Shown here piece by piece: positions 2,630-56,200 of a DNA stretch of 64,000 nt. Source of the DNA: Botryllus schlosseri (taxonomy: Eukaryota); NCBI GenBank assembly GCA_051294905.1, contig CM119371.1:3784001-3848000 (forward strand), in the 5' to 3' direction. The notes below the pieces were generated by a model. That model did no database searches and was not told the DNA's origin. It saw only the letters and a list, made by a program, of their open reading frames with translations. The position numbers were made by a program, and so were the translations under genes. Each line of letters begins with the position of its first letter. The stretch's first letter is position 1.

Positions 2630-4441
2630 AGTTCTAGTTCCACAATTATAAAATAAACAACTAGAAAACACGCGTTTTCTTATGAAGTAAATCAAGATAC
2701 CGTGGTTCTGTCGTGATAGGTTCTTACGGTCATCACTACTGACATGGGCATAGCCTGGGTTTGAGGGTCGAAACCCCTGCCATTCGACGCTCGAAACCCG
2801 GTCTCATTTGCAATGAAAGTTTGTATTATCATCAGAGTTAGTTGTGTTTTATTTAGTTAGTATGGGGTTTCCTAAGGCTGTTAGTTCTAGATGTACTTGT
2901 AGTTGCGAGTTTTGCAATAGCCGCAATAGTCAATTATAAGTAAACACGGACACATCTACTTACATTTGGGTGTCATTTCAGCACGTCGACACATTTTGTC
3001 ACTTCTCCGAGGTCTTGATTTGAACGAGAGCGCATCCCTTGGCCACTTTCGCAATTGAAGTCCCGAAATACCCATCTCTTGTGGATCCTGTCCAAATCTC
3101 GGGAAAGTCGCGGTCTTTTGGTTTTTTTAGACTAAAAAACAGAACAAATTGCCAAAAAGTTGGAAATTGGGCGAAGGGAGGACAGTTTTTGAAAATGAAG
3201 GACAAATTATCCTACATGAGGACTTATAATTGTGAATTCATGCTTTGTATTTGAGAAGCCTTACCGACTACTTTAACCATACTGTCCACTTTTCCAGTTT
3301 CAGTCAAAATTTTACTGCGTCGCACATATATTACTCACAATGTTAGTGATGAAAACAGACATCAGTCTACACCGCACAAGAACCGCGGACTGCAGACAAA
3401 CTATCAATCTAGGTAGTCGACAGTAAACTAACTACTGGCTTTTTTGAGTACCGGCAGTTCTAGCTCTAGCTGCAAGTTTTGAAGACTTAGCAGTTCTAGT
3501 TCTAGTTTCGTGTTCTAAAAATCTAGTGGTTCAATCATGACTGGTGGACTACTGATTAGCAATACAATGAGATACGTAACAAAATAAGCTCTGCCTTGGC
3601 ATAGAAAATCCGAGGAAGCCTTGGTAAACTGTTAGGGGTGAGAAGAATGACTATTATCGTGGTTGTTACTGGTAGTGGTGGGAAAACGCAAATATTTTGC
3701 TATGAAATCATTGGTGTGTCAATAAATATGATTCATAATTTACTTATTTTTTCACCTCATATTTCATTCGGACATTGATGTTTGTCAGATTACGACCGAT
3801 CCGTTTAGATTGTCGTGCAAACGTCTTTTACGACAGAAATTCTGATGCACCAGAGGAACAGCCTTTCAAATGAGGTGTTAAGTATGATGATCTTGTGATT
3901 GTAATCAACTGCAATATAATCAGAAGTGGTTGTATAAAGTAGAACCAGTAAATCTATCAATACATAGAAAGCACAGTACCCGACTATATTGATATATTTC
4001 CTATAGTTTACAGGCACAAATGGTCAAGATGTCCTCGGTGTTACTCAGGTAGAAGTAACGTCATACATTTCTACTAATGCACAATTCAAATTAGAGTATG
4101 TTAGTTAGAAGGTAAATGCCAGTTTTGCTCAGAAACTGAGAGCTGTTCATGTAGTTTAAGGAGACCAAAAGCTATTTAGGATTTTATTACCGTCAAAAAT
4201 TAAAATGACTTCATCACTGACCACCACTGCATGCATAGGACCAGATTCCGTTTTCTAGTTTATTTCACGTCCAAGCTTAGCAGTGGTTGTGTGTGCTTGA
4301 AACGAGATGAAATATATTTTGAATGTCGGATGCAGCATTGGCATTATCAGCGAATGTGTAGTTTGATCGGTAGCTGATGAAATATCCGGTAATGGTCAGG
4401 CTCTATTTCAACACACAATGGCAGGGAGCAGACTTGTACAC

Positions 4442-5060
4442 TAGGGCTGTTCAAAAATAACTTTTTTTCCTGAATCTTGCTGGTTACTTGATTAAATCGT
4501 TAGGTTGCCTTAAAAAACGACGCATACCAAATTTGAATTCATTCCGACAAATATTCGCGGGTTACGTAGAGTTTGAAAATTTTGGATTTGCCCAAAAACG
4601 CAAAAAAAAAATTTTCTCAAATTTTTTTGCCAACCCCATGAAATTGTTGGGCTGTCTTCAAAACCTATGCAAAACAAATTTGACTCAATTCCTAGCTGTA
4701 GAACCGGAGTTATTTCAGTTTTTATTCGAAAATTCTGGGATTATCCTTGATTGGTGGATAATCCATGAATTATCACCGAAAAACTGGAATAACTCCGCTT
4801 CTACGGCTTGGAATTGAGTCAAATTTGTTTTGCATAGTTTTTGAAGACAGCCCAACAATTTCATGGGGTTGGCAAAAAAATTTGAGAATTTTTTTTTTTT
4901 GCGTTTTTGGGCAAATCCAAAATTTTCAAACTCTACGTAACCCGCGAATATTTGTCGGAATGAATTCAAATTTGGTATGCGTCGTTTTTTAAGGCAACCT
5001 AACGATTTAATCAAGTAACCAGCAAGATTCAGGAAAAAAAGTTATTTTTGAACAGCCCTA
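4442..5060. mobile_element. Near-perfect 619-bp palindromic hAT-type MITE
   Basis: TAGGGCTGTTC...GAACAGCCCTA termini and perfect 8-bp TSD TTGTACAC. It accounts for the mirror ORFs 4488-4817 and 4715-5014. Confidence 0.95.
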
Positions 5061-24189: not shown

Positions 24190-24751
24190 CATAGTGCCCT
24201 ATATGGTGTCGACACAAGCAAATCTCACGCCTCAGTGAAATTGTATCACGTCACAATTTCCATTTAGCTACAGGCAATTTGACGGTCATTTTTGACCGGC
24301 TTGCCGAGCATTAAATTTGGTAAAACTGGTATCAGTCGAAAGCTGACTCTGCACTGATTACGAAAATATAAATTTTATTCCGCTCGCGGCCCTGGAACCC
24401 CCACAACCAGCCTCGAATTTTTCATTGTTATGGAGATTGGCATTGAGATGCAACAATGCTGTCTGGCGAAACGAGAGATTGGCATTGTTGCGTCTCAATG
24501 CCAATCTCCATAACAATGAAAAATTCGATGCTGGTTGTGGGGGTTCCAGGGCCGCGAGCGGAATAAAATTTATATTTTCGTAATCAGTGCAGAGTCAGCT
24601 TGCGACTGATACCAGTTTTACCAAATTTAATGCTCGGCAAGCTGGTCAAAAATGACCGTCAACTTGCCTGTAGCCAAATGGAAATTGTGACGTGATAGAA
24701 TTTCACTGAGCCGTGAGATTTGCTTGTGTCGACACCATATAGGACACTATG
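24190..24751. mobile_element. TIR-only MITE derivative of the same CATAG foldback family
   Basis: 562-bp palindrome homologous to the TIRs of 25168-27244; 7-bp TSD ATGTTAT/ATGTTAC. Confidence 0.9.
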
Positions 24752-25167: not shown

Positions 25168-27244
25168 CATAGTGTCCTATATGGTGTCGACACAAGCAAA
25201 TCTCACGGTTCAATGAAATTGTATCACGTCACAATTTCCATTTGGCTACGGGCAATTTAACGGTCATTTTTGACCGGCTTGCCGAGCATTATATTTGATG
25301 AGTCGGGTATCAATCGAAAGCTGACTCTGCACTGATTACGAAAATATAAATTTTATTCCACTCATGGCCCTGGAACCCCCACAATCAGCCCCAAATTATT
25401 CATTGTTAAGTAGGTTGGCAGTGTGACGCAACAATGCTATCTGGCGAAACGAGAGACTAGCTCAAGAGCAAGGATGCGGCCGAGCGGCGAGAGTGGGATC
25501 AGCTGACGTCGCGGCAATAGCAATGAGCAATCGCGTCGCAGAGAAACGCTGCGCTGTTGATACTTTTCTATGCGCTTCGGTACAAGCGAGCACGCCTTAT
25601 CAGCCTTTCCTTGACTTGTAAGGGTAGAACTGGGTCCACAGAATGTTTTTGGTCCCTACCAATTTTTGCGCAATATCCTTCAGCTGATACAGATATGTAG
25701 GCTACGTCTAAATAGTCTACATTGGATATGTCACATTATTATGATATCGATTGCCTTAGCCCGCTAGTTGCGTAGGGCTCCAGAGACGCGTGGCGCTGTT
25801 GATACTTTCTATAGGCGCTTCGCTAAAAGCGAGCACACACCAGCCTTTCCTTGACTTTTAAGGGTAGAACTGGGTCCACAGAATGTATTAGGGCCCTACT
25901 AATTTTCGCGCATTATCCTTCAACTGATAGAGATATTTAGGCTACGTCTAAATAGTCTACATCGGATATGTCACATTATTATGATATCGATTGCCTTAAT
26001 TAGCCCGCTAGTTGCGTAGGGCTCCAGATACGCGTGGCGCTGTTGATACTTTCTATATAGGCGTTTCGCTAAAAGCGAGCACACACCAGCCTTTCCTTGA
26101 CTTGTAAGGGTAGAACTGGGTCCACAGAATGTTTTTGGTCCCTACCAATTTTCGCGCAATATCCTTCAGCTGATAGAGATATGTAGGCTACGTTTAAGTA
26201 GTCTACATTGAATATGTCAGATTATTATGATATCGATTACCTTAGCCGCTTGTTGCATAGGGCTCCAGAGATGCGTGGCGCTGTTGATGGCGGGTGTCGA
26301 TACTTTCTATAGTCGCTTTTATGGTTAAGTGTGAGCAATGAGCATTGAGCATGGGCATACATTACAAGCTTTTATTTGATCCGTAAGGGTAGGACTTGGT
26401 CCGCGAATGCAGCAGGTAAAATGTGGATTGTTGAATAAAGTTTAACAGCAGGAGTGTCGAACTAAACTGGGATCGCTGTCCGGATTCAATCCGTTATTGG
26501 AAAGCTTGCGGGCCAGACCTGCCAAATGACTCCAAAATGTTACCACCATATCCATACCTTTGTTTTTCACTGGAATATATCTGATATCACTATAAACGTT
26601 GACGTTGGAATTTGGTTTATCATTTTTCAATCACCAAACAGTTTTTTTGAATGCCGGGGACCTTTTGCGTCAAAAGTAATACAGTGGTATCACAGATATT
26701 TGAATTATATTCATTCTGTAGCCTTTATATATATTCCTAATGTAACTTACGTAAAACGGATTTGCATTATTTTTTTCGCATCTGTGAATAACTGAATGTC
26801 CATTGTCCATTCGGCCCAACAGAGTTTGCATAGAAAGCGCATAGAAAAGTATCAACAGCGCAGCGTTTCTCTGCGACGCGATTGCTCATTGCTATTGCCG
26901 CGACGTCAGCTGATCCCACTCTCGCCGCTCGGCCGCATCCTTGCTCTTGAGCTAGTCTCTCGTTTCGCCAGATAGCATTGTTGCGTCACACTGCCAACCT
27001 ACTTAACAATGAATAATTTGGGGCTGATTGTGGGGGTTCCAGGGCCATGAGTGGAATAAAATTTATATTTTCGTAATCAGTGCAGAGTCAGCTTTCGATT
27101 GATACCCGACTCATCAAATATAATGCTCGGCAAGCCGGTCAAAAATGACCGTTAAATTGCCCGTAGCCAAATGGAAATTGTGACGTGATGCAATTTCATT
27201 GAACCGTGAGATTTGCTTGTGTCGACACCATATAGGACACTATG
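25168..27244. mobile_element. P/Galileo-like foldback element with ~410-bp TIRs and internal ~240-bp tandem repeats
   Basis: CATAGTGTCC...GGACACTATG termini, TIRs 25168-25577 and 26835-27244 almost identical, perfect 7-bp TSD GTCGCAT. Confidence 0.9.
25551..26410 (+). repeat. Tandem array of ~240-bp units (3 full + 1 partial) inside the foldback element
   Basis: Units begin gcgctgttgat at ~25551, 25793, 26038 and 26278; the full units share aagggtagaactgggtccacagaatg. Confidence 0.9.
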
Positions 27245-41200: not shown

Positions 41201-44200
41201 GCATGTAAATCAGAATTACTCCATGGACATCATAGTGAGTCTTATATTACAAGGAAAATAAAACACTACAGTCAAAAACGCTTTTATTATTAGGGCTGGA
41301 CACAGTGATTGGAGTGCTCAAATCTGAAACGAATATCAATTTTTAATGATTCAGGTCGAGTAGTAAAAGTCGATTTTCTCAAGTAACGAAATTATGTAAA
41401 AATTGACAAAAATTGTAGTTTTGACAGTATTTTGCACTTTTGAAGCCTTGAAATCACGATTGGTCGCATGGCTGCAAATCAAACATATCGTACAAAGCTA
41501 CGGACGTTACTGGAATAACATATTTTCAAAGTCATTACAATCGCCCAAAATTGCCACTAACTGCAATGAAATTGGTATGTTCGAAAAAATACCGAAGTAT
41601 CTTTTTTGTGATGCATAACAACAGTCATTATAATATTTAAGGTTACATAAAAGGTACATATTTGAACTTTGGTATATTATATTCCGTTATGACGTCATAA
41701 CATAACGAGTCTCGAATAGTCGACTCGACTCTAAGCTTTATATGAGATTTAGAATTGAATCACTCATATACTCGATTTTTTCCAGCCCTAGTTAATCAGT
41801 GAACAATTTTGCTATGCAATGTCGAAATCATTGAGTTGGCCTGAAAATCAGATGCGCACTTTGTTGATTAGCAGTAGTAATATTCTGTTGCGCACTAATG
41901 CATGTCGACATGCACACTTTTGAATTTTGACGATGCTGACAATGTTACTTTTTATTTACGCAGTGCATTTTGTAAGTGCGCGCGCCGTTTGCTTTCGTGA
42001 ATGTGACAAAATTTTCCAAAATATTGATGAACAATTCGATCATCGCCAGACTGGCTGGTATCGATCACACCAATATCAAATTTTATTACATTACATTCAT
42101 TTCATTCATTGTCAATGTAGTAGAAGATGATTTTTGTTGATGAGGTCGTGACATTAGCTCAGCGCTCTTATTGCTGCCACTACTTTACATAATCCCCCAT
42201 TTCACCAAATTCGATTATATAGCTCGATACTGATGACACAGTGCGGATATTAAAACATCATATCAGTGGGTAAATAGTCTACGGCTTCGGGATGAAAGCA
42301 GAGTAGGACCGTTAAAAAAATTCTTCAAAATTCACTGGCTATGTGATAAAATTGTTAGGTTGGTTGAAACAACGCTGTAAACCAAATTTGCCTTCATGTC
42401 CAACCAGTAGAAGCAAGATTCTTGCTGTAAAAAGTTTTGAATTTATAATTTAAAAAAATCAAAGTTTTTCCTTCAACCCCATAAAATTGTTAGGCATGTG
42501 ATGATGCTTACCAAATTTGGCTCAATTCCAACCGCTAGGAGCGAAGTTATTGCCGCCGTAAAATTTCCAATTCCATGATTGTTTGGGAAATAATTATAGC
42601 TTTCAGTACAACATCCACTGTAGTACAATATTTAAACTCAAATACTTTCGGCACACTAAAGGGATTCAAATGGATTTAGAAGCAAAACCAAATCTGTTTA
42701 ACTCCCTTCAGTCTACCGTTAACTCTTGAAAGAGGCCACAAAAAAGTATTCGAGTTTAATAAATATTCTACTACAATGGATTTTGTATTGAAAGCTATAT
42801 TCAAGATCTGTACCGCGAATCAGCTATTTGAATAAATAATTAAAGAGTTAGTTACCGTAAAATTATTTTATTCGAGTTCAGATTTTTTCTACCACAATAA
42901 CTTCGCTTCTAGTGGTTGGAATTGAGCCACATTTGGTGTGCATCGGCTCTACTGACAGCCCATCAATTTTACGTTGTTGACAGAAAAATTTTAAAATTTT
43001 AATTTTGAATGATAAATCAAAAATTTTCTACTGCAAGAAAATCGCTTCTACTGGTTGCAATTGACCCAAAGTTGGCATGCCACGTTGTTTTCGCCATCGT
43101 AACAATTTTATAAGCATAGCCGAAGAAATCTGAAGGTTCTTTGAACAGCCCTGATGCAGAGAATGTATGTATAATGCTTTCTATCACGAATATGGCGTCA
43201 CCAAACACGTGTGATTGTCACGTCACAAGTCTCCGCATACCCACATAAAATTATAGTGGCTTGTAAGTACACAACTAAATCATAGAATCGATCTCACTTC
43301 CCAATCCAATTTTCCAGATAGCGATTCAATCCGACGATGTCGGAGAAGTGAACGCAGTGCTGTTGCTGACAACTTATTGCCACGCAAATCCACTTTCTTC
43401 ACCTGGAATGATGAATGAAATATGAATTCAATGTCGGCCAATATCATGTCAAATTAACACAGGTTTGCACAGACTTATTCAGGGCATATTTTGGAAGCTG
43501 AGTATGTTCAACATCATTGCGATCCCCATAATAAAGTCAAACGACACTGTGTTTAGAGCCACGGTCTTTTACTAATCCATTCAAATAACTTCAATCAATT
43601 CTAGGAATACACCGCACTCTATAATTGAGATTACGATTTGATTTCAGTGAATGATGGCTAATTTTATTCACTTTCGATTTCATTTTTGCGAGCGAGGCGG
43701 CCACAGTAGGATCAACTGTAATTTGTAATTAGGCTGCATGTAATTAATTATATTTTTCATAATATTTTAATTGTCATTGAAGCATTTCTATTCTGTGTAA
43801 TTGATACAAATTTGATAAAAATTTTACTAAATGCAATTTCAAATGCATTGTTATTGAAACCTGACAATCACAACATAAAATAATTAGTACATTAACATGA
43901 TTGTTCTATGCGTACCTCGTTAACTATTTCAGGCATACTAAACTGTTTTCCATAGGCCAACTTCAGCTCCAACAGAAAACTTGGTGAATTACAATATAGG
44001 CTATCGAACAAAATCTTACTATTTCATAAATGGACGAAAAGCAAATAAACTCTTCTGTAACCTGTGCTGAACCATTTCCTACACTACGGTCGGTGTTTTA
44101 TTATAATCTCTTTCCAGTACTGAGGCTTGCTGCAGGAATTGCAAAAAGAAATTCAAATTTTCAACCAAGACTTCATCACGTTAGATCATTCATTTGTAGA

Positions 44201-47200
44201 GATGTTAGTTATCCCAGTCTTACCTCCTATCTTAGATTAATTTACTGGGGCCAGAACCTTTCCGCACCCTGATGTTCATCAAATGCGGTCGAACAGTTTT
44301 GAGCAAGTGAAAATGTAACTGCGAACCAAAATTTTGTAATTGGTAGTTATCAGGAGCTTCTTTACTTTTTCATTTACTTTAATTTTACACACCTCATCGG
44401 TATCATCCTTATTGCCTTACCAATTACATTTCATTCACCTTACTCAGCTCTGAGTATTCATTTGAGTACATTTAATTGAATGTCTTGTATCCTATTCGTT
44501 ATTAGTCGTTGCCAGTCGCTCGAACTTTTGATTGTTAGTAGTTGCTTATAAAAATTTTATTTTTTAGTATTTTTCAGAGCTTATGATTAGGAATAGTTCG
44601 AATACGTTAAAATTTGTTTTTTCTAATTAAAGGGTAAACTACGTACTGTAGTACGAGTCATGAATGAAACATGAATAGCTTGAGATTGTTGCTAAATACG
44701 TCGCTACAGTTGTCAAAGAGCACTTATCTAGCGAATCAATCAGACTTTTACCAGTAATTGTAATTATAATTGTACTTACTTACATGTTTAACAGTAATTG
44801 TAATTGTAGTCAGGGTTCCAAAGACTCGAGTCACGATTATCTGATGACTCGACTTGACTCGAGTCATTTTCGCAAAATTCCGAAATTAATCGACTTAACT
44901 CGAGTCAATCTGTGTACTGACTCGACTTGGAGTCAATTCATTACGCATGACTCGAACCAAGTCATATGACTCGAGACTCAGACGGCCAATATCGGCATTT
45001 TATTGCAATTTCAAAGAATAGTAGAGTGACCACACTATTGAGATTTCGTCTATGGGTATTGGTACTTGAAAATGCGACCAGAAACTGCTACAAGTGAGGA
45101 AAATTAATATATCATGAATGTGAACTATTGGATATCAACAAACTGGGTTATAACAAGTGGGTTACCAAGACTTTAACTGGAAGCTGAGCGGTTAACACAA
45201 TGATTTGGACTCGAGTCATAATACCATGACACGGACTCCGCCCTCTGATCGCTGACTTGGACTTGGTCGTGACCTGAAAATGACTCGACTTGACTCGAGT
45301 CAAAACTATAAAAATGTAATCAACTTGTAACTCGGATTCTTTGTGACCAGGTTACATCCCTGATTGTAGTTATAATTTTATATTTTTAGCATACAGTAGC
45401 CTAATTGTAGTCATAATGAAATTATAACATGCAATACAGTAATTGTAATTGAAATTGAATTGAATTCATGTAATTGGTGCAACTCTGGAGGTGGCCCTAT
45501 ATTTAAATTAATACAAAGTGTACTGAATCCCACGTAGCGCCAAGAAAAAAATTCAGTAGCATAAATCTGCTATTATTGTTTATGTTTATTTGGAAAAGAT
45601 TTTGAGCGTAATTCAAGCCTTCAAAATTATGTATTTTGATGCATATATAAAAATTTCCTTCCCAACACAACGTGAACAGTGAAATTCCGAACATGTCCCG
45701 GAAAATCCAGACGGATGGCAATCCTAATAAATTGAGAATTTCGGACCATCATTCGTGTGCGCATTTTTCAACAAGAGCAATGTTAATGTGATGCAGCGAT
45801 GCGTTCGGATAACACCCACACAGCACTGCGATGATCTAAATCAGTGGTGGCGGAGGAAAAGAATGTTGTGTAATATTCAGAGGCCAAATTATACTCACTC
45901 TAGTGACAAAATTTACGCACCGAGTTCACAGGTTTGTGTAAAATTGTATCGCGAAGTAGTTCTTCATTGAAGCGAAAACCCAATGCAATATCGTTATATA
46001 CTGGTCACCCGAATATTAAAAAAGTGATAAAATATGGTGTTAATATCTGTTTTCGCAGCACTATGTCAGTTTTGGGTCACACGGTCCCTCGCCCCCACAG
46101 AAACCTGAAACAGGATTCAATATTCATGAACCAAATTACAGCGTCACCGTTTATAGGTAAATCTATCTTATTCCTCACAACGTATAGTCAGGGCTAACGC
46201 CAGATCAGAAATAAAACAATGAGATAGCGTAGAAGCATACCAAGTTATACCGTCATTAGGGCGACTGCTTCAGCGGTTTATAGGCTATATCTATTCAAGT
46301 CACAAATTGTACTTTTCAAGCGATTTCAAGGTTTGAATCCGGCCAGCTACCCAAGTTGAGTTTGACGCTTCTGATCTATATCCTACCCTCATATCGAGAT
46401 AATTTTATTCAGGCGCCAGCATTAAATGGGAAATATGTCTGAAGATGGAAAAACTAGTATTCCATGCACGATGCGATTTTAGTTGACGGATGGGCTACTG
46501 CTTTTTTTCAAGTCACTATTAGTATACTGCTGGAAGTCACGCTAGTTATAATAGACGACCTTGAACTCACACGTTGATTACACGGTCCGTGGACATGGCA
46601 CTCACCCGGGCCGGACATGGGACATACAATATACCTTCCGAGTGACATATGAATTCAGCGGTGTTTTGTGCCTAAACTCACATGTATTCTTTTTTCCAGA
46701 CACCCCGTAATGATCGACAAAAGCTCATCGTTGATGTTGCAGTTACACAAACCCAAGCTCCTCAGACTTTCACTCCTTGCTGCAAGTGATCCAACGATAT
46801 GAGTATAGAAATTAAACATGGAACGGCAACGACCGATTTTGCAGCTTCGTTCCGCTTCGCAGAGGCTGGAGAGGAGAGTGGTTTTGCGTAAGCGACTGTA
46901 GGATTTCTGGCAATCCAAAAGCTATCTTCCCGAGCCCAGAAATTATTGAATCTGGTCTTGATCGAAAGCTACTGTTGCACCGATTCCGAAAATATAAATT
47001 TAAATAATGATCAGGCACTGATCCACCTAGAATCTGTCCTCCAAGTCTGAAATATCGGCATTGTTCAGAACAATCGGGTAACCGCAACACAATGACCGTA
47101 ACAATGACCCGTTGCGACTCTCCGATTGTTCGAACAATGCCGATATTTCGACTTTGAGGACGGATTCTAGGTGGATCAGTGCCTGATCATTATTTTAATT

Positions 47201-50200
47201 TATATTTTCGGAATCAGTGCAACAGTAGCTTTCGATCAAAACCAGATTCAATAATTTCTGGGCTCGGGAAGATAGCTTTTGGATTGCCAGAAATCCTACA
47301 GTCGCTTACGCAAAACCACTCTCCTCTCCAGCCTCTGCGAAGCGGAACGAAGCTGCAAAATCGGTCGTTGCCGTTCCATGTTTAATTTCTATAATATGAG
47401 CCTCATCGCGACTCAATGAAATGTCATATGCATTGATATCGGAAATTTGTTTCATAAGATCGTCGTCTCCTGATTCATAGATTGCTGTATACAGTTCCAT
47501 GCGAACGTGCTTGTTGTCCTCCTTGAGATGCGAACGGATCGATCGGGCGAGAAATCGCTTTTTCAGCGACCGAGTTGAGACTGTCAGACAAATAATGCAC
47601 CTCACTATACGATATTACAATCGAGTAAAGAGGAACAACAGTTTTCACAGAGACACAGCCAAGCGGTAGAGTTGAAGCCATATTCGCCCACAAATGTTTG
47701 ACTCATACGCATGTTTTCACAACGACACAATGAATCCTTGACGTATGTCATTGTATCAGAACCTAAATTCGCATCGTTAAAATTTCCAATTACCCGCCAC
47801 ATATTATTCCGCTGCTTACGCGACTTGATGTACGCAGACTGACTGAATATGAAACAGTTCTGACTGGATTGATCTTTTACTGCATTGTCTTGGGACCATA
47901 GTGCGACAAAGCATGGATTCAATAAACTCATTGGATCCGTGCCCACCATACAGTCATGCGTTCAAGATCGATTTTTCTCACAAGATTCAAAACAGTGGTA
48001 CGAAGGTGCGCACGCTATCAGAAATGACATTTCTGTGAGGTCTTGATAAAACTACAGCATCGTCACTAAATCCAATATGGTTGGTATGAGCAAAAATATT
48101 ATATAATGGGCATGTTATGGACACAGTACTATTTTTGTGACTTTGCGTATTATACAGCCAGTGGTGGTGTCATGGGTAATGCTCGTATGCTCAACTGGTC
48201 TTATAACGAATCTAATGACAGTAGAGGTCGGCCGATATTGATTTTTGCCGGCCGATACCGATGATCGACACACTCACAAGGCCGATAACCGATATCATTG
48301 GCGGATATTAATTTGGCAGGAGCAGAGAACCATTTTGATAAAAATCATATATATATATCAAGCATGATGGCACTTGTACAATGTACATGCCACAGAAAGC
48401 TGGACAACAAACGAGAAAAATGAAATTAGAATGAAATATTGCTCGATTGTGCACATTCATTGAAATTTGGGTCAACCCGACAAGCAAAACATGATACAGA
48501 ATTGCTGATCAGTCGAGCAGAGGTAGCTTGTAATGTAGGGAAGCATACTTTTACTGCATGCTCACCCAGTTAAACTCGTCCTGCGACGTTTAATCTGTCA
48601 CGCATCGCTCTTGGCGTTGCCGATTTAATGAGATTGAAAACACGGAGCATTGAATTTTCAATATTTTTGAATTTGTTTTATAAATAAAATATTGGCCTCG
48701 ATGCCAGCATTTCATGGACTGATATCCATAATCGGGAAGGTTTCAAATATCGGCTTCGATAATCGGTCAGGTTTATAATCGGTCGACCTCTAACTAATAG
48801 ATTCGAAACTCCAGTCGTTACGCTGGAATCCACAATGCTGAGCATGTCAATAATAGCATAATTAATACTAGTGGGGACCAGAGTGTTAAATTCAATAAAA
48901 CTGAATTTAATCGAAAGCAGATTTTGAAAATATCAATTAAAGTTTGATCAGAGTAATGAAACCACCCCTAAATAGCACTGAAGGGTCATGAAATCGGCAT
49001 TGTTCCAACAATCGGACCGCCACAGCACAATGACAACAACAATGGTCAAATGCGTCGCGCGACCGTTTTGAACAACGAGGTATCGCGATTAGTAATCAAA
49101 AATTGGACTCAAAGCCTGACACTCAGTTCAGAATTGAATCACTCCGATACTTGATATATGATCAGACCACACTCGCACCTAGGGAAAAATGTGTGCTTTC
49201 TCACAGATTCATATTTTCAGTCTTGAGAGTAGCGGGAATACGATAACTTTTCGAGAAAATTAGCCAACATCACCGAAAACTATACTCTCCAATGGCCTCA
49301 CCTTCATGAAGGTTATCCTGTGTTTCGTCGTAAATGATGCCGCACACGAATCTGCGGACGACCGACCATCGCTCTTTGTGCAGGTCGCCATAGTTGAAAA
49401 GCATGAAAGCTGGAAGCGACATCTCAGCCACGCAGCCCGCTGCGAGGAATTCCTGAAGACTTTGATGACAGAAGAAGAAAATGAAACTGCCATCCAATAG
49501 ATTGCAACTAAGGAGGTTATTTCCTGGAACCTTCATCATGAGATCTTGAACTTCTTCTGTTGAAAGTCCAAACTTCTTCAAGTCATTTTCAGAGAATGTC
49601 ACTCTCCCTTCTTCCATGCCACGATATGCCATCGCTTTCAATTTATTAACAACTCCAGCGATAACCTTTGCATTTGTAATGTTTTTCACGCTGCTTAAAG
49701 TGGATATAATTTTTTTGTAGAGTCCTGTGACGGTCTTTGGAGGAGGTTCGTTCGGATTCTTGGCCATGATCACTGCGGTTAAGACCAGAAACACGGGAAT
49801 GGAGACTAAATTGACCAGCCTTGGTGACATTTTTTCTATCTTCTCCCATGCTTCATCCCCATGCTGACGTATCAGAAACACAAAGAGCTTCTTTGCGTCA
49901 TCTAGGGTCAGACCAGAAAGTGTGATGATGTTGGCAGGTCGTGCTTCCACAGGTAAATCCGAGACTTGGAATTCTCGGGAAGTGATGACGATCTTTGTAT
50001 CAGCGAGCAGATTACGTGAGAGGATGTTGTACATGATCGTTGCTGCGGTGGCCGAAGTAAAAGGATTTATTTTCTCGTCTCCCTTCTTATTGATTTTCCA
50101 AATGGCTTGATCCAAGCCGTCGAAAATTAAAACTGCTTTTGATTGATTTTGTAGCAACCACTGATATGCACGTTCCTCGTTGATTTCATCCGGAAAGAGG

Positions 50201-53200
50201 CCACCGAAGAGAAATTTAGATGGTTTGATGAATCCTTTATCTTGCATGCCTTTTATTTCTATATACCGTATTAATTCGTACTTGAGCTGAGAGGAGCTTG
50301 CAATGGCGTCTGTATTCGTAAGTGAATGCCCTAAAGTTCTTCTTGCGATTCTGCGCAGAAGAGTGGTTTTTCCAGATCCTGCCGACGCAACTATGGCGGT
50401 GATAGAACTTTCCCCGTAGATAAGCTGTTGCAAAACTTCATCTAGCTCGATGAATTTGTCGTCATCAACTTTTTGTCGAAGGAATCCGAACTCCTTTCTG
50501 AATTGATTTTTCACAACCTCTGTCTTTTTCCAGAAGAATAATTTTCTTTTCATCGCAACTTCCATTCCGTGCACCTCTTCATAATTGCCTTTGAAATATT
50601 CTGACCTCATCAACAGCCTCATCTGGGGATGAACTTGGAAATCTGGTTGGCTGAGATCCTCATCAGCGAAGTCTTCAAGAATTTTATCAGCCGTCGTTCT
50701 TGACGAGTTTTCGTTGATTGATTGGATCAAATCTAAACACGAGTCTGGAAGATAATTTTGGTGTTCTATAGTTATATTTTACTATGGGATATGCTGGTGT
50801 TCCAGTGTTGATTACGTTTCTTCATGCTATCTCATGCAAAGACTTCTATATTCACAACATTCAGTACGAAGCAGTTGTTAATCTTAACCAGAGTTATGTG
50901 TACCACTTGGGGATGCGCAACACCAAAGCGTTCGGAACGGCATGGAATGTGGAATTATAAGACAGTTTCAGATATTTTTAAAATCTTCCTTTGTTGTATA
51001 TCCATAACAATGGCTCTTAAACTAGGAGCCAGTTCTCTTTGGAAAGCATCAAAGACAGCGAAGTGACGGCGCGAAACCACCTCGGAGAAGTAATGTTTCT
51101 TGAACTCAGGGTGAATTTAATTTGTGTTGACACTTGCAAATTTAAACAATGGCAATAATCCCAATTACGGTAGATTACGATTCAATAGTGATCACTGCTA
51201 CATACTATCTATACACCAATGCCACACCTTGCACTGACACTCGAACACATTTTGTAGAATAGCCTACCACTTTGAATAAGCACATTTTATGGCAGCTTCA
51301 AATTACAGCCTCATGTTATCATTTCGCCGTAAAAGTGCGACCAGTAGCGAAAAATCGCTCTGGGCATACCCCCAATGTCACATTTGAGATGGGTCCCAAA
51401 ACAGTTACAACAAGCCCTTGTTGACCTAAAACGAAAAATTTTTAACCTACCAAATTAAAATATCGACATCGTTTATCTCAGAAAACTTAATTTTCACAAC
51501 ATTTTGATCTCATATATGCAAATTGGGTGTTGTTGCATATCATGTTAGAATCTTACAAGTTATCTTCATTTCTGGTCAGAACCGTCTCTCTTTACGAAGT
51601 AGTTGAGCGGAAAAAAAATTCCGACTTCAAAACTGACAAATTTATACATGACAAAAAAAATATTTCAACAAATTCTGGACCTATGAAGAATTCCAGTAGT
51701 TGTATCACACATTATAGTGAAATTACAATTTGTTGCAGTACAACGAAAAGTACTTCTCTATATTTTCGGGTAGAAAGTGTCTAAGTAGCTAACTTACTAA
51801 GTAGCTGGCATAGAGTGAAGAAAGAAGGTTCATCAGCAGCAGTTGTTAGCTGACAACACTGAAGTTGTGCATACACTGCTAGAGACACACCATGTTGCTT
51901 CATTCTGGCAATGTTGTATACATCCCAATTTTTCATCGTGCTCTTCTTGATATATATAAGATCTAATGCCCATGCAGTCTCGCTTCAGTTAGGATATTGC
52001 GGTACGTTGAGTATAACACCATTATTTATTTCATTTCAACGTTTATGATTTACATTGAGCAGACGAGGGGTCGTCTACAGCGGTAGGCATATGAAGTAGG
52101 CTACAAGCTGTAAAATGTCAAATAATAAGTTAACAACACAAAAATCTACGACACAAACGAAATGTGGGTTCCATAAAAAATCCTGACAATTTTTAAACCG
52201 AACACTACAATTTTGACGAAATTTTGACTTGATTTGACACGTAAAAATATATCACCCTAGTAAAAAAATCCATGCCCGGTACCATCATTGATGGTCCATC
52301 AAGCAATGCACTGGGATTGCAAAATACAAAAAATTATCGCACCCGTCATTAATATTCCTTGATCGGTGAAATCGTTCATTATCATTAAAGGCAGCGTATC
52401 TAAAAATTTAAGAATCGGAGGATAGGTATTTATAGAGGTTTTCATAGTAGTCAACAAGGTTTCTCATGAATTAGTAGAAGTATTCACACTGAATGTTACC
52501 CCAGGTGTAAAAGAATTTCTTTTTGAAGCAGCATAAAACTCCTTTGAGTAGATGTAGAATTTGCTGTTTCTGAAATCCGCTCATGTAAGTAAGCGGTTTA
52601 GAACGTTATCACCAATACCCTCCCATGTACAATTAAAATGTCGCAATTCAAATATGTGGACCGTGTAGAACAGAGGCCTCAAACACGCGGCCCGCGGGCC
52701 GCATGCGGCCCCCCAGAGCATTTTGTGCGGCCCGCGCCGACATTTTAGATTTTTATTAATTTGACAATATATAAGTGTCACATGTATCTAGTCAGGTTAT
52801 AAACATAAAATTCCCTCTTAAATTGCTCCAAAAGCCTGAAACTATTCATCAAACTTCACTATCACATCAATTGCAACCGCTACCATATGCAGTGAATAAG
52901 TCACTGTTCCGTAACATTTCCAATTAATGATGACAAAACCTGACCTTTAGACGATTCGTGACTGAAATTTGTGAGTTGGATTGAACGCGACCTTTCTTAG
53001 AATTACTCAGACTCGGGCTAACTCGATGGCTAAATGAAAATGACTCGAGTGGACTCGGAATGCCGTGAATTTGTTAGAACCATGGACGCAGCAAACTAAT
53101 CGCGTATCAGGGCAGTAGTAATAGATCAGAAGGTTGCAGCTCGGTATTTCGCTAACTAACTAACTAAGCAAGCAGTTATGGCAACCATTGGCAGTCTGTT

Positions 53201-56200
53201 GGTAACATATGTGGTCACTAAACCATGTTATTAGGGCCACTTAAAGCTACCGAGTACCGTAGTGGTACGCTACAACGATGTAGCAACAATGGGCCGTTCG
53301 GCATTCCGACATTTCAATCACCATGACACATTCAATAATATATTTATTTGATACATTTATATTTTTTCTGCTCCCATATTTGAAGATATTTGGCCATGAG
53401 ATTATTATTAGCCTACTTATCAGAAGTATACCCAAATCCTGGATTGGAATTACAATGCTCAACCTAAAAGTGTTTTGATATCAGATCAGTCTCTATTATC
53501 AATTTGTTAAATTCAAAATATTCATAGTAGCTACAAAATTATAACCCTATAGCTTTTATGATGGCATCATACATTAGTCCGCCCATATGGTGTCTATATC
53601 TTTTATTTTATATATATCAAGTACAAAAACAATTCAATTCCAATATTGATAGATGTGATGATTCTTTTCGTCCCAGACCTAAATTGATACAAGAGTGAAT
53701 CCGATTTTGACTATGTGTGTTTACTGACAGTCTGCTGGATCGGCTCACTTTCAATAGGACAATTCATTCCCGCCAAATAAGGCCTAATTGGAAAGACATA
53801 GAATACTCCTAAAAATGCTGCGGCCCGCGGCTTCGTCAAAACTGGAAAACTGGCCCGCGAGCACATTTGAGTTTGAGACCTCTGGTGTAGAATGTTGGTT
53901 TCGTGTTTCTACATCTCATGCAAGAGGTAGACATTTCCAATGTGATACAAATCATATCTTAGCGTGGCGTTAGAACAGTGGTTCTAGACGTTAAACCTCC
54001 CAGAACAATCCCCAAAAAGATGCCACTTTAGCGTAAAATTATACTTTCGAGTTCTTCAAAAAGTACTTCATTGCTGACCTCACATGCGTATTCATGAGAG
54101 TGTATTATTACTAGCACCTAAACAATAGAGACAGCTTTTTCAGATGACTCGGCGTTTCAAAACTGTGAATTTACTCGTGACACAGAACAAAATTCACGGC
54201 TATATCACACATAAATTAAACACAAACGAAATATTTAGAGCTTACCGCTTATGTTGACGTATACTACAAAAAATCCAATAGCAATATGCCTCTGATCTGT
54301 ACACTCCTCACATTTCCCCACCAGTGCTCACTTTCAGCAACTTTTGTATGATTTGATTCGATCAGATATAGTTTACATGCACTTATGTTCATATTACTCG
54401 TCGACTCGTCGTCAGAGCATCAAACAAATTCTGATGCCGTCATATAGTTACATGTCTTGTCAGATGCCATGACACATCGAATGACACTGATGGATGTGCT
54501 ACTGTAATCCGGCCGCTAACAGTCATTAATACCATCTTTGATCGGCAACAAATAGTCACCAACCAAACCAAATGCCAAGAACCTATGTGCGAGCCACCAA
54601 TTACAAAGCGCTAAGACACAATTAAATATCGTATATATTGATATTGAAATGAACCTGATTATTTTGGCTGACACTGACACTCGCCAGCCAACTAAACTAG
54701 TAGAGAATTGGTTGCTAGTTGCTGAGGATTACTCTTGAGGAGTTTCATCCGAAAATAATCGGGTTCATTTCAATATGGATCATATACAGTGGCGGCTCGT
54801 GACAATATCGGGTGGTGGGGCAAGGGCTGCGAGCGACTTTTATCAACATGACGTCACAATGGCGTTTTCCAACCTAAAAAAGTAACTTTAATATGATGGT
54901 CACATGAATTTCCCGACAACAGTGATTTTAACGTAGGTGCCGCGAGAGGTTTGCCGGTGAGCCGTGACTTGAAGTGTGGTAACAAATGTTTTATTCATTT
55001 TTTTTAATCAAAGGATTATTTTACATAATGTACGTGAACTAAGAATCGTCCCTATGCCACGAATCAATTATCAGGTCATCCTTAGTAGCATGCGTTATGA
55101 TTTCATGGTAGAGTTAGAGATTACGCAAATCGATAGGCCGTCCGAGAGTGTTTCGTACCCGATCCTGGTGTGTTACGACCACTGAGCTGGTGGTTACGAG
55201 TTACGACCAGGTGATAGGCAACCAAAGCGGAGGTACCCGGCGTACGATTGGATCAATGGACTGGACAATTTCTATCATCATCATCATTGGTTTATTAGCA
55301 ATTTTATCAGTTCAATACACCACAAAAATGCGATACAATGAAAAGACAGGAATATGTCGAAGCGACAAGGAGTAGTCTTCTAGACCTTTAATTTTCGCTC
55401 TAAAGGCAACTGCGTAAACTAGCCTACGTACGGAGCAAAGATTCAATACGATTCATGTTCGCACTTGACTTGACCAGACTAATTCCAATGACTAGAACTC
55501 GAGAGATTGCGTAAGCCTAACTGCAAAGGTCAACGACTTCGGACACATACGCAATTGTTATCTCATAGATTGGGCATGTCATATTGAATCCAGAACATCA
55601 ATTTGAATGGTCTTTGAAGAACTAAGGACAGCAGCCTCGGAACTTCGGTCTCGGAACAACATAGTACATTTTGGCCTTGAAACTGGAGATTGTGACGCAA
55701 CACATACGGCTTACTGTCTGCTGCCAAATCGGCGTTGGAAAATATATTAATCAATAAATACATGAATGAAAGCCGTAAACTTAGCATACTGTTACATGAA
55801 ATCATCGAGAAGTAGCATTCGCAATCTCATAACCCATTCCGGCATGGTACACTGTCAAAATCAATACAAACAGACGAACACCGAACTTTGAGTAAAATAG
55901 ATCGAGGAATAGGCTGATCGAATGATCAGCTGTTAGCCGACATCGAAAATGAAATAGCTATCGCATTTGACAGGGGATTGTAAGCAAATGGTTTGAAGGC
56001 CACAATTTCACAGTGAAATGCACATTGGCGAACATAAAATTATGTGAATATTTGAATGCAAACCGAGAATCTTAGTTAGCTGTGTCATGCGATCATCGAG
56101 ATATACCATTGGAAATATCATCACCGATCTCGTTATGGAACGCAGACTAGATTAGCACAGACAGACACCGGCTTTTCCGTGAGATCCGCAATGATGTAGG

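What the first reader, a model, noticed from the sequence alone, without database searches (positions are those of the whole stretch)
46682..47580. Young foldback transposon sits inside the first LRR exon; precise excision restores the NLR
Seen: a 590-bp palindrome flanked by a perfect ATATGAG TSD splits DEAHI|VGSLAARSESLRSLGLCNC. Deleting the element plus one TSD (597 nt) gives an intact 302-nt exon, and I see no other lesion in the gene model. Read-through gives ...EAHIIEIKHGTATTDFAASFRFAEAGEESGFA* (stop at 47306), a protein lacking all LRRs. The ends have no GT/AG, so it is not an obvious introner. Inference: a recent, probably polymorphic null or LRR-less allele. LRR loss de-represses many NLRs (established), although NMD is likely. 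Excision leaving both TSDs (+7 nt) would frameshift.
Basis: partly seen in the sequence, partly recalled or inferred. Interest (0 to 1): 0.75.

Follow-up and report, generated by a model that had tools for sequence, protein, structure and literature searches.

The report
Young hairpin transposon splits immune-receptor exon
A recently active 590-base hairpin-shaped jumping element has landed cleanly inside a coding exon of one of many sea-squirt NLR immune-receptor genes and truncates it, which is an ordinary kind of gene knock-out, although the element family itself looks active.

Summary
A 590-bp near-perfect palindrome (46804-47393) sits between two perfect ATATGAG copies. It splits a 302-nt minus-strand exon (46682-47580) of a NACHT-domain (NLR-type) gene and brings a stop codon into frame at 47306-47308.

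It is one copy of a young family of non-coding DNA transposons. Its 30-nt terminus occurs 883 times in the genome. Of 40 scored copies, 39 are full length and 97-100% identical. Of 29 copies examined, 28 have exact 7-bp (25) or 8-bp (3) target-site duplications. The window copy differs at 2 of 590 positions from its subfamily consensus.

Paralogous NLR loci serve as empty sites. Ten of 10 aligned paralogues break exactly at 46803/47394 with a 7-nt overlap, and 26 of 26 paralogous sites are unfilled.

Duplication length and the palindromic target motif match the P superfamily (Galileo/1360 type). No autonomous partner was found, so that assignment is inferred.

Three points are not shown:
- whether the insertion is polymorphic (the read data were uninformative);
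- whether the gene is expressed;
- whether the rest of the gene, including its LRR part, is intact.

"Precise excision" holds as arithmetic, but it is not the usual outcome of cut-and-paste excision. Verdict: real, well supported, biologically ordinary.

The parts
46804..47393 (.). 590-bp non-coding foldback (hairpin) DNA transposon. Outer arms are 244 nt at 98% complementarity, with inner arms of 18 and 21 nt and a 22-nt centre. It has no tandem subrepeats.
46797..46803. Left copy of the 7-bp target-site duplication, ATATGAG.
   Evidence: Each of 10 paralogues has this 7-mer once.
47394..47400 (.). Right copy of the 7-bp target-site duplication, ATATGAG.
47401..47580 (-). 5' part of the split exon (acceptor AG at 47582-47581). 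It encodes ...STRSLKKRFLARSIRSHLKEDNKHVRMELYTAIYESGDDDLMKQISDINAYDISLSRDEAH.
   Evidence: It aligns to the post-NACHT segment of Styela NLR proteins.
46682..46796 (-). 3' part of the split exon (donor GTGAGT at 46681-46676). It encodes VGSLAARSESLRSLGLCNCNINDELLSIITGCLEKRIH, which holds one LRR-like motif.
   Evidence: Pfam LRR_1 scores E = 0.15, below the cut-off.
47306..47308 (-). Premature stop codon inside the element, reached 28 codons after the insertion point.
49302..50778 (-). NACHT exon (the open frame runs 49270-50778). It carries the Walker A motif GSGKTTLL. The donor AAG|GTGAGG at 49301 is in phase 1, which matches the acceptor phase of the split exon.
   Evidence: Pfam NACHT 6.2e-15 and NOD2_WH 3.2e-6. 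The translation is and the donor phase.
43300..43404 (-). Candidate next exon, not verified. It reads VKKVDLRGNKLSATALRSLLRHRRIESLSGKLDWE, is LRR-like, runs from phase 0 to phase 0, and lies between an AG and GTGAGA.
   Evidence: (weak match to Styela, E = 0.16). There is no Pfam hit.

Best explanation
A non-autonomous cut-and-paste DNA transposon has recently inserted into a conserved coding exon of one member of a very large sea-squirt (ascidian) NLR gene family. The element is built as a 590-bp hairpin and belongs to a young family with several hundred copies.

Insertion duplicated the 7-bp target ATATGAG and lost no host sequence. The transcript now meets a stop codon 28 codons into the element. 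The allele therefore either encodes a protein that ends just after the NACHT/winged-helix module or, more likely, is degraded by nonsense-mediated decay.

The element probably moves by means of a P-superfamily (Galileo/1360-type) transposase supplied in trans. This step is inferred from TSD length and target motif only.

Whether the insertion is polymorphic or fixed is unknown.
For: **Structure and TSD.**

**Family.**
- Of 40 scored places (1691 first-look candidates), 39 are full-length copies at 97-100% identity.
- The terminal 30-mer with up to 2 mismatches occurs 433 + 450 times; the reversed control occurs 0 times.
- Of 29 full copies, 25 have an exact 7-bp TSD, 3 have an exact 8-bp TSD and 1 has a single mismatch.
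- Two longer elements with the same ends also have 7-bp TSDs.

**Youth.** The window copy differs at 2 of 590 positions from the consensus of its 11-copy subfamily and at 8 of 590 from the 29-copy consensus.

**Clean insertion.**
- Ten of 12 fetched paralogue loci contain the exon, and all 10 are uninterrupted and open.
- All 10 alignments break at 46803/47394 with 7 nt shared.
- In 26 of 26 paralogous places where both flanks were scored, the flanks abut.
- Styela clava NLR proteins align across the junction.

**Host gene.**
- NACHT and NOD2_WH are found by Pfam.
- The NACHT frame is open for 502 aa.
- The donor and acceptor phases fit.
- The nearest named proteins are Styela clava NLR-like proteins at 34% identity.

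**P-type target.**
- Pooled over both orientations (n = 58), the counts are T at TSD position 2 in 48, A at position 6 in 48, G at position 1 in 33, C at position 7 in 33, and A three bases before the TSD in 36. Base frequencies of T and A are about 0.30.
- This gives ANNGT...ACNNT. P and 1360 show ANAGT/ACTNT, and Galileo shows AANGT/ACNTT with 7-bp, rarely 8-bp, TSDs and consensus GTANTAC (PMC4168063 passages; PMC3698922 passages).
- The genome holds at least 150 matches to the P-transposase domain PF21787. Several lie in open frames of 792-813 aa.
Against: **Superfamily.** No autonomous element sharing these termini was found. The one P family examined (799-aa ORF, at least 5 copies at 98%) shows no similarity to the element. 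Both longer elements with the same ends look like nested insertions and carry no transposase. The T2/A(n-1) target rule is also typical of hAT elements, which target NTNNNNAN (PMC3878927), so the superfamily is not settled.

**Arms.** They lack the tandem subrepeats described for Galileo and FB.

**Gene status.** I could not verify the gene outside two exons. Of 85 long paralogue NACHT matches, 21 carry in-frame stops, so this family decays often. The paralogue may already have been dying.
Confidence: 0.85

Rival explanations
1. The element belongs to hAT or another superfamily, not to P. The knock-out is the same but the transposition machinery differs.
For: T at TSD position 2 and A at the second-to-last position is the hAT rule, NTNNNNAN (PMC3878927 passage). 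Three of 29 TSDs are 8 bp. No P-type partner with matching ends was found.
Against: Twenty-five of 29 TSDs are 7 bp, as in 1360 and Galileo, whereas hAT elements make 8 bp. The flanking A...T at -3/+3 matches the P, 1360 and Galileo target motifs. P transposases are abundant and intact in this genome.
Confidence: 0.3
2. The paralogue was already a decaying pseudogene, or the insertion is old enough to be fixed, so the event is neutral debris and not a recent segregating null allele.
For: Twenty-one of 85 long NACHT-exon matches in the family carry stops. I found no LRR array downstream.
Against: The NACHT exon is fully open with an intact Walker A motif. The restored exon is open and highly conserved. 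The splice phases fit. The element is 0.34% from its subfamily consensus and its TSD is perfect.
Confidence: 0.2
3. The palindrome at this locus is an assembly artefact or a somatic artefact.
For: Palindromes can be created by library or assembly errors. The reads laid here did not span the junctions.
Against: The same 590-bp sequence with its own TSD occurs at 28 other examined loci, and its termini occur 883 times. This copy has a perfect 7-bp TSD that fits the family's target rule (T2, A6). The host sequence is otherwise exactly colinear with its paralogues.
Confidence: 0.03
4. The element is removed from the transcript by cryptic splicing or hairpin skipping, and the gene still makes a near-normal protein.
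For: The insert folds into one very stable hairpin. Twenty-six GT...AG pairs would remove it in frame without a stop.
Against: No GT/AG lies at the element ends. The best in-frame donors match at most 5 of 9 consensus positions in a crude score. Skipping the whole 302-nt exon would shift the frame.
Confidence: 0.03

Closest known systems
Galileo (Drosophila), the foldback-like member of the P superfamily
   Same: It has very long inverted arms that give a foldback shape. Its TSDs are 7 bp with occasional 8 bp. Its palindromic target centres on GTnnnAC, with A and T a few bases outside (PMC4168063 passages). Many of its copies are non-coding.
   Different: The element here has no tandem subrepeats in its arms. 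It is only 590 bp, almost all of it arm. No transposase-bearing relative was found. The host is a tunicate. Sequence homology to Galileo was not tested.
BuT5, a MITE mobilised by a divergent P element in the Drosophila repleta group
   Same: Both are non-coding, high-copy elements thought to depend on a P-type transposase supplied in trans (PMC3698922 abstract and passages).
   Different: BuT5 has 3-bp terminal repeats and 8-9-bp TSDs, and its ends match a known P element. Here the arms are about 290 bp, the TSD is 7 bp and the partner is unknown.
1360 (Hoppel/ProtoP), P superfamily
   Same: It makes a 7-bp TSD and has the ANAGT...ACTNT target motif, as quoted in PMC4168063 and PMC3698922.
   Different: 1360 is not a near-perfect palindrome. 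No homology was tested here.
Drosophila FB and Mutator-type foldback elements (for example Tm1 of root-knot nematodes, PMC3169594, seen in the search listing only)
   Same: They share the foldback architecture.
   Different: FB-type elements have 9-bp TSDs and arms made of tandem repeats (recalled). Here the TSD is 7 bp and no tandem repeats are present.
Transposon-insertion null alleles of NLR genes in plants and animals (general phenomenon, recalled)
   Same: A mobile element interrupts one member of a large, fast-turnover NLR family and truncates it.
   Different: This case is in a tunicate NLR and involves a hairpin MITE. No phenotype or population data exist.

Membership tests
Non-autonomous cut-and-paste DNA transposon (MITE-like, foldback-shaped) | Terminal inverted repeats | tested here: met
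   The arms are 244 nt at 98% complementarity, plus inner arms.
Non-autonomous cut-and-paste DNA transposon (MITE-like, foldback-shaped) | Many dispersed copies, each flanked by its own target-site duplication | tested here: met
   There are 39 full-length copies among 40 scored places and 883 termini in the genome. Exact TSDs flank 28 of 29 copies.
Non-autonomous cut-and-paste DNA transposon (MITE-like, foldback-shaped) | No transposase gene of its own | tested here: met
   The element is 590 bp in total. The longest open frame inside it is 124 aa and is mirrored by the palindrome. No family search was run on it.
P superfamily (P element, 1360, Galileo) | TSD of 7 or 8 bp | tested here: met
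   Of 29 copies, 25 have 7 bp, 3 have 8 bp and 1 has 7 bp with one mismatch.
P superfamily (P element, 1360, Galileo) | Palindromic target motif ANNGT...ACNNT that extends beyond the TSD | tested here: met
   One search gives A(-3) 36/58, G1 33/58, T2 48/58, A6 48/58 and C7 33/58. supplies the comparison.
P superfamily (P element, 1360, Galileo) | Termini shared with an element that encodes a THAP/P-type transposase | tested here: inconclusive
   P transposase domains are abundant (at least 150 matches). The one family examined shares nothing with the element. The other P families were not examined. Two longer elements with these ends carry no transposase.
Galileo proper | Long arms with internal tandem repeats | tested here: not met
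   Tandem Repeats Finder returned 0 rows for 46700-47500.
Drosophila FB / Mutator-type foldback elements | 9-bp TSD (recalled) and arms built from tandem repeats | tested here: not met
   The TSD is 7 bp and there are no tandem repeats.
hAT superfamily | 8-bp TSD with NTNNNNAN | tested here: not met
   Only 3 of 29 TSDs are 8 bp. The rule of T at position 2 and A at the second-to-last position does hold, so a hAT-like mechanism is not excluded.
NLR (NACHT-LRR) immune receptor, for the host gene | NACHT NTPase domain with a P-loop | tested here: met
   Pfam NACHT scores 6.2e-15, 55.9 bits against a cut-off of 26.7. GSGKTTLL is present in the translation.
NLR (NACHT-LRR) immune receptor, for the host gene | Winged-helix/helical module after the NACHT domain | tested here: met
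   NOD2_WH scores 3.2e-6, 27.6 bits against a cut-off of 23.1.
NLR (NACHT-LRR) immune receptor, for the host gene | C-terminal leucine-rich repeats | tested here: inconclusive
   There is only LRR_1 at E = 0.15 in the split exon and one LRR-like candidate exon. An HMM of Styela LRR units found nothing with E below 1.

The most novel reading that the evidence does not exclude
The family may be a currently transposing, P-type hairpin MITE in a chordate that creates presence/absence null alleles in the NLR repertoire. Transcripts of the filled allele would contain a roughly 285-bp near-perfect double-stranded RNA hairpin. That hairpin could feed small-RNA pathways, so that an immune-gene transcript becomes a source of silencing RNAs against the element family. 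A further possibility is that a stable LRR-less NACHT protein acts as a constitutively active or dominant-negative variant.
Probability: 0.06. Interest if true: 0.6.

Novelty: new member of a known kind. Interest (0 to 1): 0.3.

Why it matters
The event shows, with a clean internal control from paralogous empty sites, that a hairpin-shaped DNA transposon family has been moving very recently in a tunicate genome and can knock out members of the expanded NLR family. That is a plausible source of individual differences in immune repertoire.

The family's 7-bp duplications and its target motif also give a testable lead: P-type transposases, which are abundant and intact in this genome, may still be active in a chordate.

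In itself, a transposon insertion in one of at least 85 NLR paralogues is expected biology. It is not a surprise to specialists.

Tried and rejected
**Reads.**
- No listed holder of the stretch is on record as RNA.
- I laid three contig sets (X1, X5, X6) and one raw RNA run (X23).
- The contigs were short, with listed pieces of 100-430 nt. None of the 24 listed pieces spans 46803/46804 or 47393/47394.
- No joint from 46803 to 47401 is among the 15 joints listed; 160 more were not shown.
- All 243 RNA reads that were laid fit only partly.
- This gives no verdict on polymorphism or on expression.

**Alternative haplotig.** The flanks have one 100% place in the assembly. The next best place is a paralogue at 92% and 97%.

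**Downstream gene model.**
- A Pfam scan of 126 minus-strand open frames found no LRR family above threshold.
- tblastn with the C-terminal parts of Styela proteins gave only weak hits.
- A home-made HMM of 18 Styela LRR units found nothing with E below 1.
- Conservation among paralogues does not separate exons from introns, because whole loci are 80-92% alike.
- A protein search at 'near' lengths returned only single-exon-sized relatives at 51% identity or less.

**Autonomous partner.**
- The P family of L055 shows no similarity to the element and no detectable terminal repeats or TSD within the 6.5 kb fetched.
- Two longer elements with the family's ends (3.7 kb and 2.9 kb) look like nested insertions.

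**Earlier notes of this scan.** A look-up by sequence found nothing, and so did one by words.

**Cryptic splicing.** No convincing in-frame donor/acceptor pair turned up.
Full report
**1. The observation**

- Window 46804-47393 is a 590-bp near-perfect palindrome. The outer arms are 244 nt and 98% complementary. Inner arms of 18 and 21 nt surround a 22-nt centre.
- The palindrome is flanked directly by ATATGAG on both sides, at 46797-46803 and 47394-47400.
- On the minus strand, 47580..46682 is bounded by an AG acceptor and a GTGAGT donor.
- Deleting 46804-47400 (597 nt) leaves 302 nt open in one frame, reading ...SLSRDEAHIVGSLAARSESLRSLGLCNCNINDELLSIITGCLEKRIH.
- With the insert the frame runs ...DEAHIIEIKHGTATTDFAASFRFAEAGEESGFA and stops at 47306-47308.

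**2. It is a transposon of a young, abundant family**

The window lies in a 495.5-Mb assembly of 219 contigs.
- A DNA search of that genome with the 590 bp scored 40 of 1691 first-look candidates. Of the 40, 39 are full length (1-590) at 97-100% identity and one covers 19-590.
- The terminal 30-mer, allowing two mismatches, occurs 433 times forward and 450 times reverse. The reversed control occurs 0 times.
- I could delimit 29 copies out of the first 30 loci. Of these, 25 have an exact 7-bp TSD, 3 have an exact 8-bp TSD and 1 has a 7-bp TSD with one mismatch. Every copy has different flanks.
- The window copy differs at 8 of 590 positions from the majority consensus of those 29 copies. Six of the eight are shared by 11-14 copies. 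Against the consensus of its own 11-copy subfamily it differs at 2 positions.
- The sample was chosen by similarity to the window copy, so the divergence of the other copies is biased low.
- The arms contain no tandem subrepeats.

An assembly artefact cannot explain a structure that recurs with individual TSDs throughout the genome.

**3. Paralogues give the empty site**

The host gene belongs to a huge family. The 502-aa NACHT exon finds 85 long matches in the genome, many of them on the same contig, and 21 of those contain stops.
- I fetched 12 of the closest loci. Ten contain the homologue of the split exon. In all ten it is uninterrupted, open, and has the 7-mer once.
- Whole-locus alignments to all ten break exactly at 46803 and resume at 47393/47394, with 7 nt of the paralogue used twice (8 nt for L049 and L051).
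- Searching the two flanks separately gave 26 paralogous places where both flanks were scored. In all 26 the flanks abut.
- Styela clava NLR proteins, at 34% identity in the NACHT exon, align across the junction.

The insertion therefore added 597 nt and removed nothing.

**4. The host gene**

- The exon at 49270-50778 carries NACHT (6.2e-15) and NOD2_WH (3.2e-6) and a Walker A motif.
- Its consensus donor AAG|GTGAGG at 49301 leaves one nucleotide over. That fits the two nucleotides that open the split exon, so the two exons join in frame.
Open frames with a start codon exist there. Only one NACHT exon lies in the window, so I take this to be the same gene. I did not test the join.
- Downstream of 46682 I could not establish the model. 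Pfam finds only a sub-threshold LRR_1 match in the 3' half of the split exon.
- One LRR-like candidate exon lies at 43404-43300.
- An HMM of Styela LRR units finds nothing.

**5. Consequence**

- The premature stop lies more than 600 nt upstream of the exon's donor. Nonsense-mediated decay is therefore the expected fate. This is inferred from the general rule, not shown here.
- Any protein made would end shortly after the NACHT/winged-helix module.
- Skipping the 302-nt exon would shift the frame.
- A crude scan found 26 in-frame, stop-free GT...AG pairs around the insert, but their donors match at most 5 of 9 consensus positions.
- The insert would fold into a hairpin of roughly 285 bp in the pre-mRNA (-523 kcal/mol, z = -50.7). 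Whether that has any effect is speculation.

**6. How the element moves**

- TSD length (7 bp, sometimes 8 bp) and the target motif point to the P superfamily.
- Pooled over both orientations (n = 58), T is at TSD position 2 in 48 and A at position 6 in 48. G is at position 1 and C at position 7 in 33 each. An A lies three bases before the TSD, and a T three bases after it, in 36. This gives ANNGT...ACNNT.
- Passages read in PMC4168063 give 7-bp, rarely 8-bp, TSDs for Galileo, with consensus GTANTAC and half-motifs AANGT/ACNTT. They give ANAGT/ACTNT for P and 1360.
- Passages read in PMC3698922 state that 1360 and Galileo make 7-bp TSDs, and that P-like elements occur in Ciona.
- The window's own target, ATATGAG, obeys the T2/A6 rule.
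- The genome holds at least 150 matches to the P-transposase domain PF21787, several within open frames of 792-813 aa.

The direct link is missing, however.
- The one P family I examined (799-aa frame, at least 5 copies at 98%) shares nothing with the element.
- Two longer elements with the family's termini and 7-bp TSDs look like 590-bp copies with something inserted into them.
- One of them holds a SWIM finger and a YqaJ-like nuclease frame, not a transposase.
- hAT elements share the T...A rule (PMC3878927 passage), so a hAT-like enzyme remains a rival.

I put the odds at roughly 65% for P-type.

**7. Polymorphism and excision**

- The single run search listed 20 holders, none on record as RNA.
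- Laying X1, X5, X6 and X23 gave short contigs and repeat-dominated tables. No listed piece or joint bears on the junctions, and all 243 RNA reads fit only partly. This is no verdict.
- No second haplotype copy of the locus is in the assembly.
- The low divergence of the copy makes a segregating insertion plausible, but that is inference.
- 'Precise excision restores the NLR' is true as arithmetic. According to the review passages read (PMC3878927), excision sites are mostly repaired by end joining, which leaves footprints, or by homologue-dependent gap repair. Exact restoration would therefore be expected mainly in a heterozygote with an empty homologue.

**8. Verdict**

This is a real and cleanly documented recent insertion of a foldback-shaped non-autonomous DNA transposon into a coding exon of one NLR paralogue. 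It is a new member of known kinds, both as a mobile element and as a mutation. The activity of the family and its P-like target signature in a chordate are of modest interest. The knock-out itself is ordinary for a family of this size and turnover.

My two literature searches were not aimed at this element family and turned up no description of it. That is not a claim that it is unpublished.

Noticed in passing
window 48920-49044; also 24300-24641, 25299-25353, 27059-27113: These are old, diverged fragments (72-84% identity) related to the arms of the 590-bp element. The one at 48920-49044 lies in the intron between the NACHT exon and the split exon. It is shared with several paralogues (L045, L047, L049, L053, L054), so it predates the gene duplications.
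   Followed up: partly
L057 (G000:C1:7534239-7537224): A 2.9-kb element has the same termini and a 7-bp TSD (ATGATAC). About 2.3 kb is inserted at arm position 139/140. The insert carries open frames with a YqaJ-like nuclease domain (1.3e-11) and a SWIM zinc finger (6.2e-5). I did not determine whether this is cargo or a nested element.
   Followed up: partly
L056 (G000:C1:39593575-39597357): A 3.7-kb element has both arms of the family and a 7-bp TSD (GTGTGAT). About 3.1 kb of non-coding DNA sits in place of the loop. Arm positions 298-306 are present on both sides, which suggests a nested insertion with a 9-bp duplication.
   Followed up: partly
L055 (G000:C2:28704500-28711000) and the places listed: A P-type transposon family more than 5.9 kb long has an intact 799-aa frame. 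At least 5 near-full copies are 98% identical, and there is a related family at about 83%. Inverted copies of its left subterminal part lie beyond the right end of some copies, so the elements are probably about 7 kb long.
   Followed up: partly
G000 contig C1, 0.18-3.8 Mb and elsewhere: The NLR family is very large. There are 85 long NACHT-exon matches among 218 first-look candidates, many in clusters on the window's contig, and 21 contain in-frame stops. The closest paralogues are 80-92% identical over whole loci, introns included.
   Followed up: partly
L044 (G000:C1:2716900-2726800), about 4324-4647: A 324-bp partial copy of the same element (about 94% identity) lies in the corresponding intron of a paralogous NLR locus.
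   Followed up: no
window 44708-45509 and 51525-53500: These stretches have very high summed contig depth in all three DNA contig sets and carry most of the RNA reads that were laid. They are high-copy repeats inside and upstream of the gene.
   Followed up: no
L018 (G000:C4:28019618-28023189): One and a half copies of the element lie head to tail, giving a three-armed variant.
   Followed up: no
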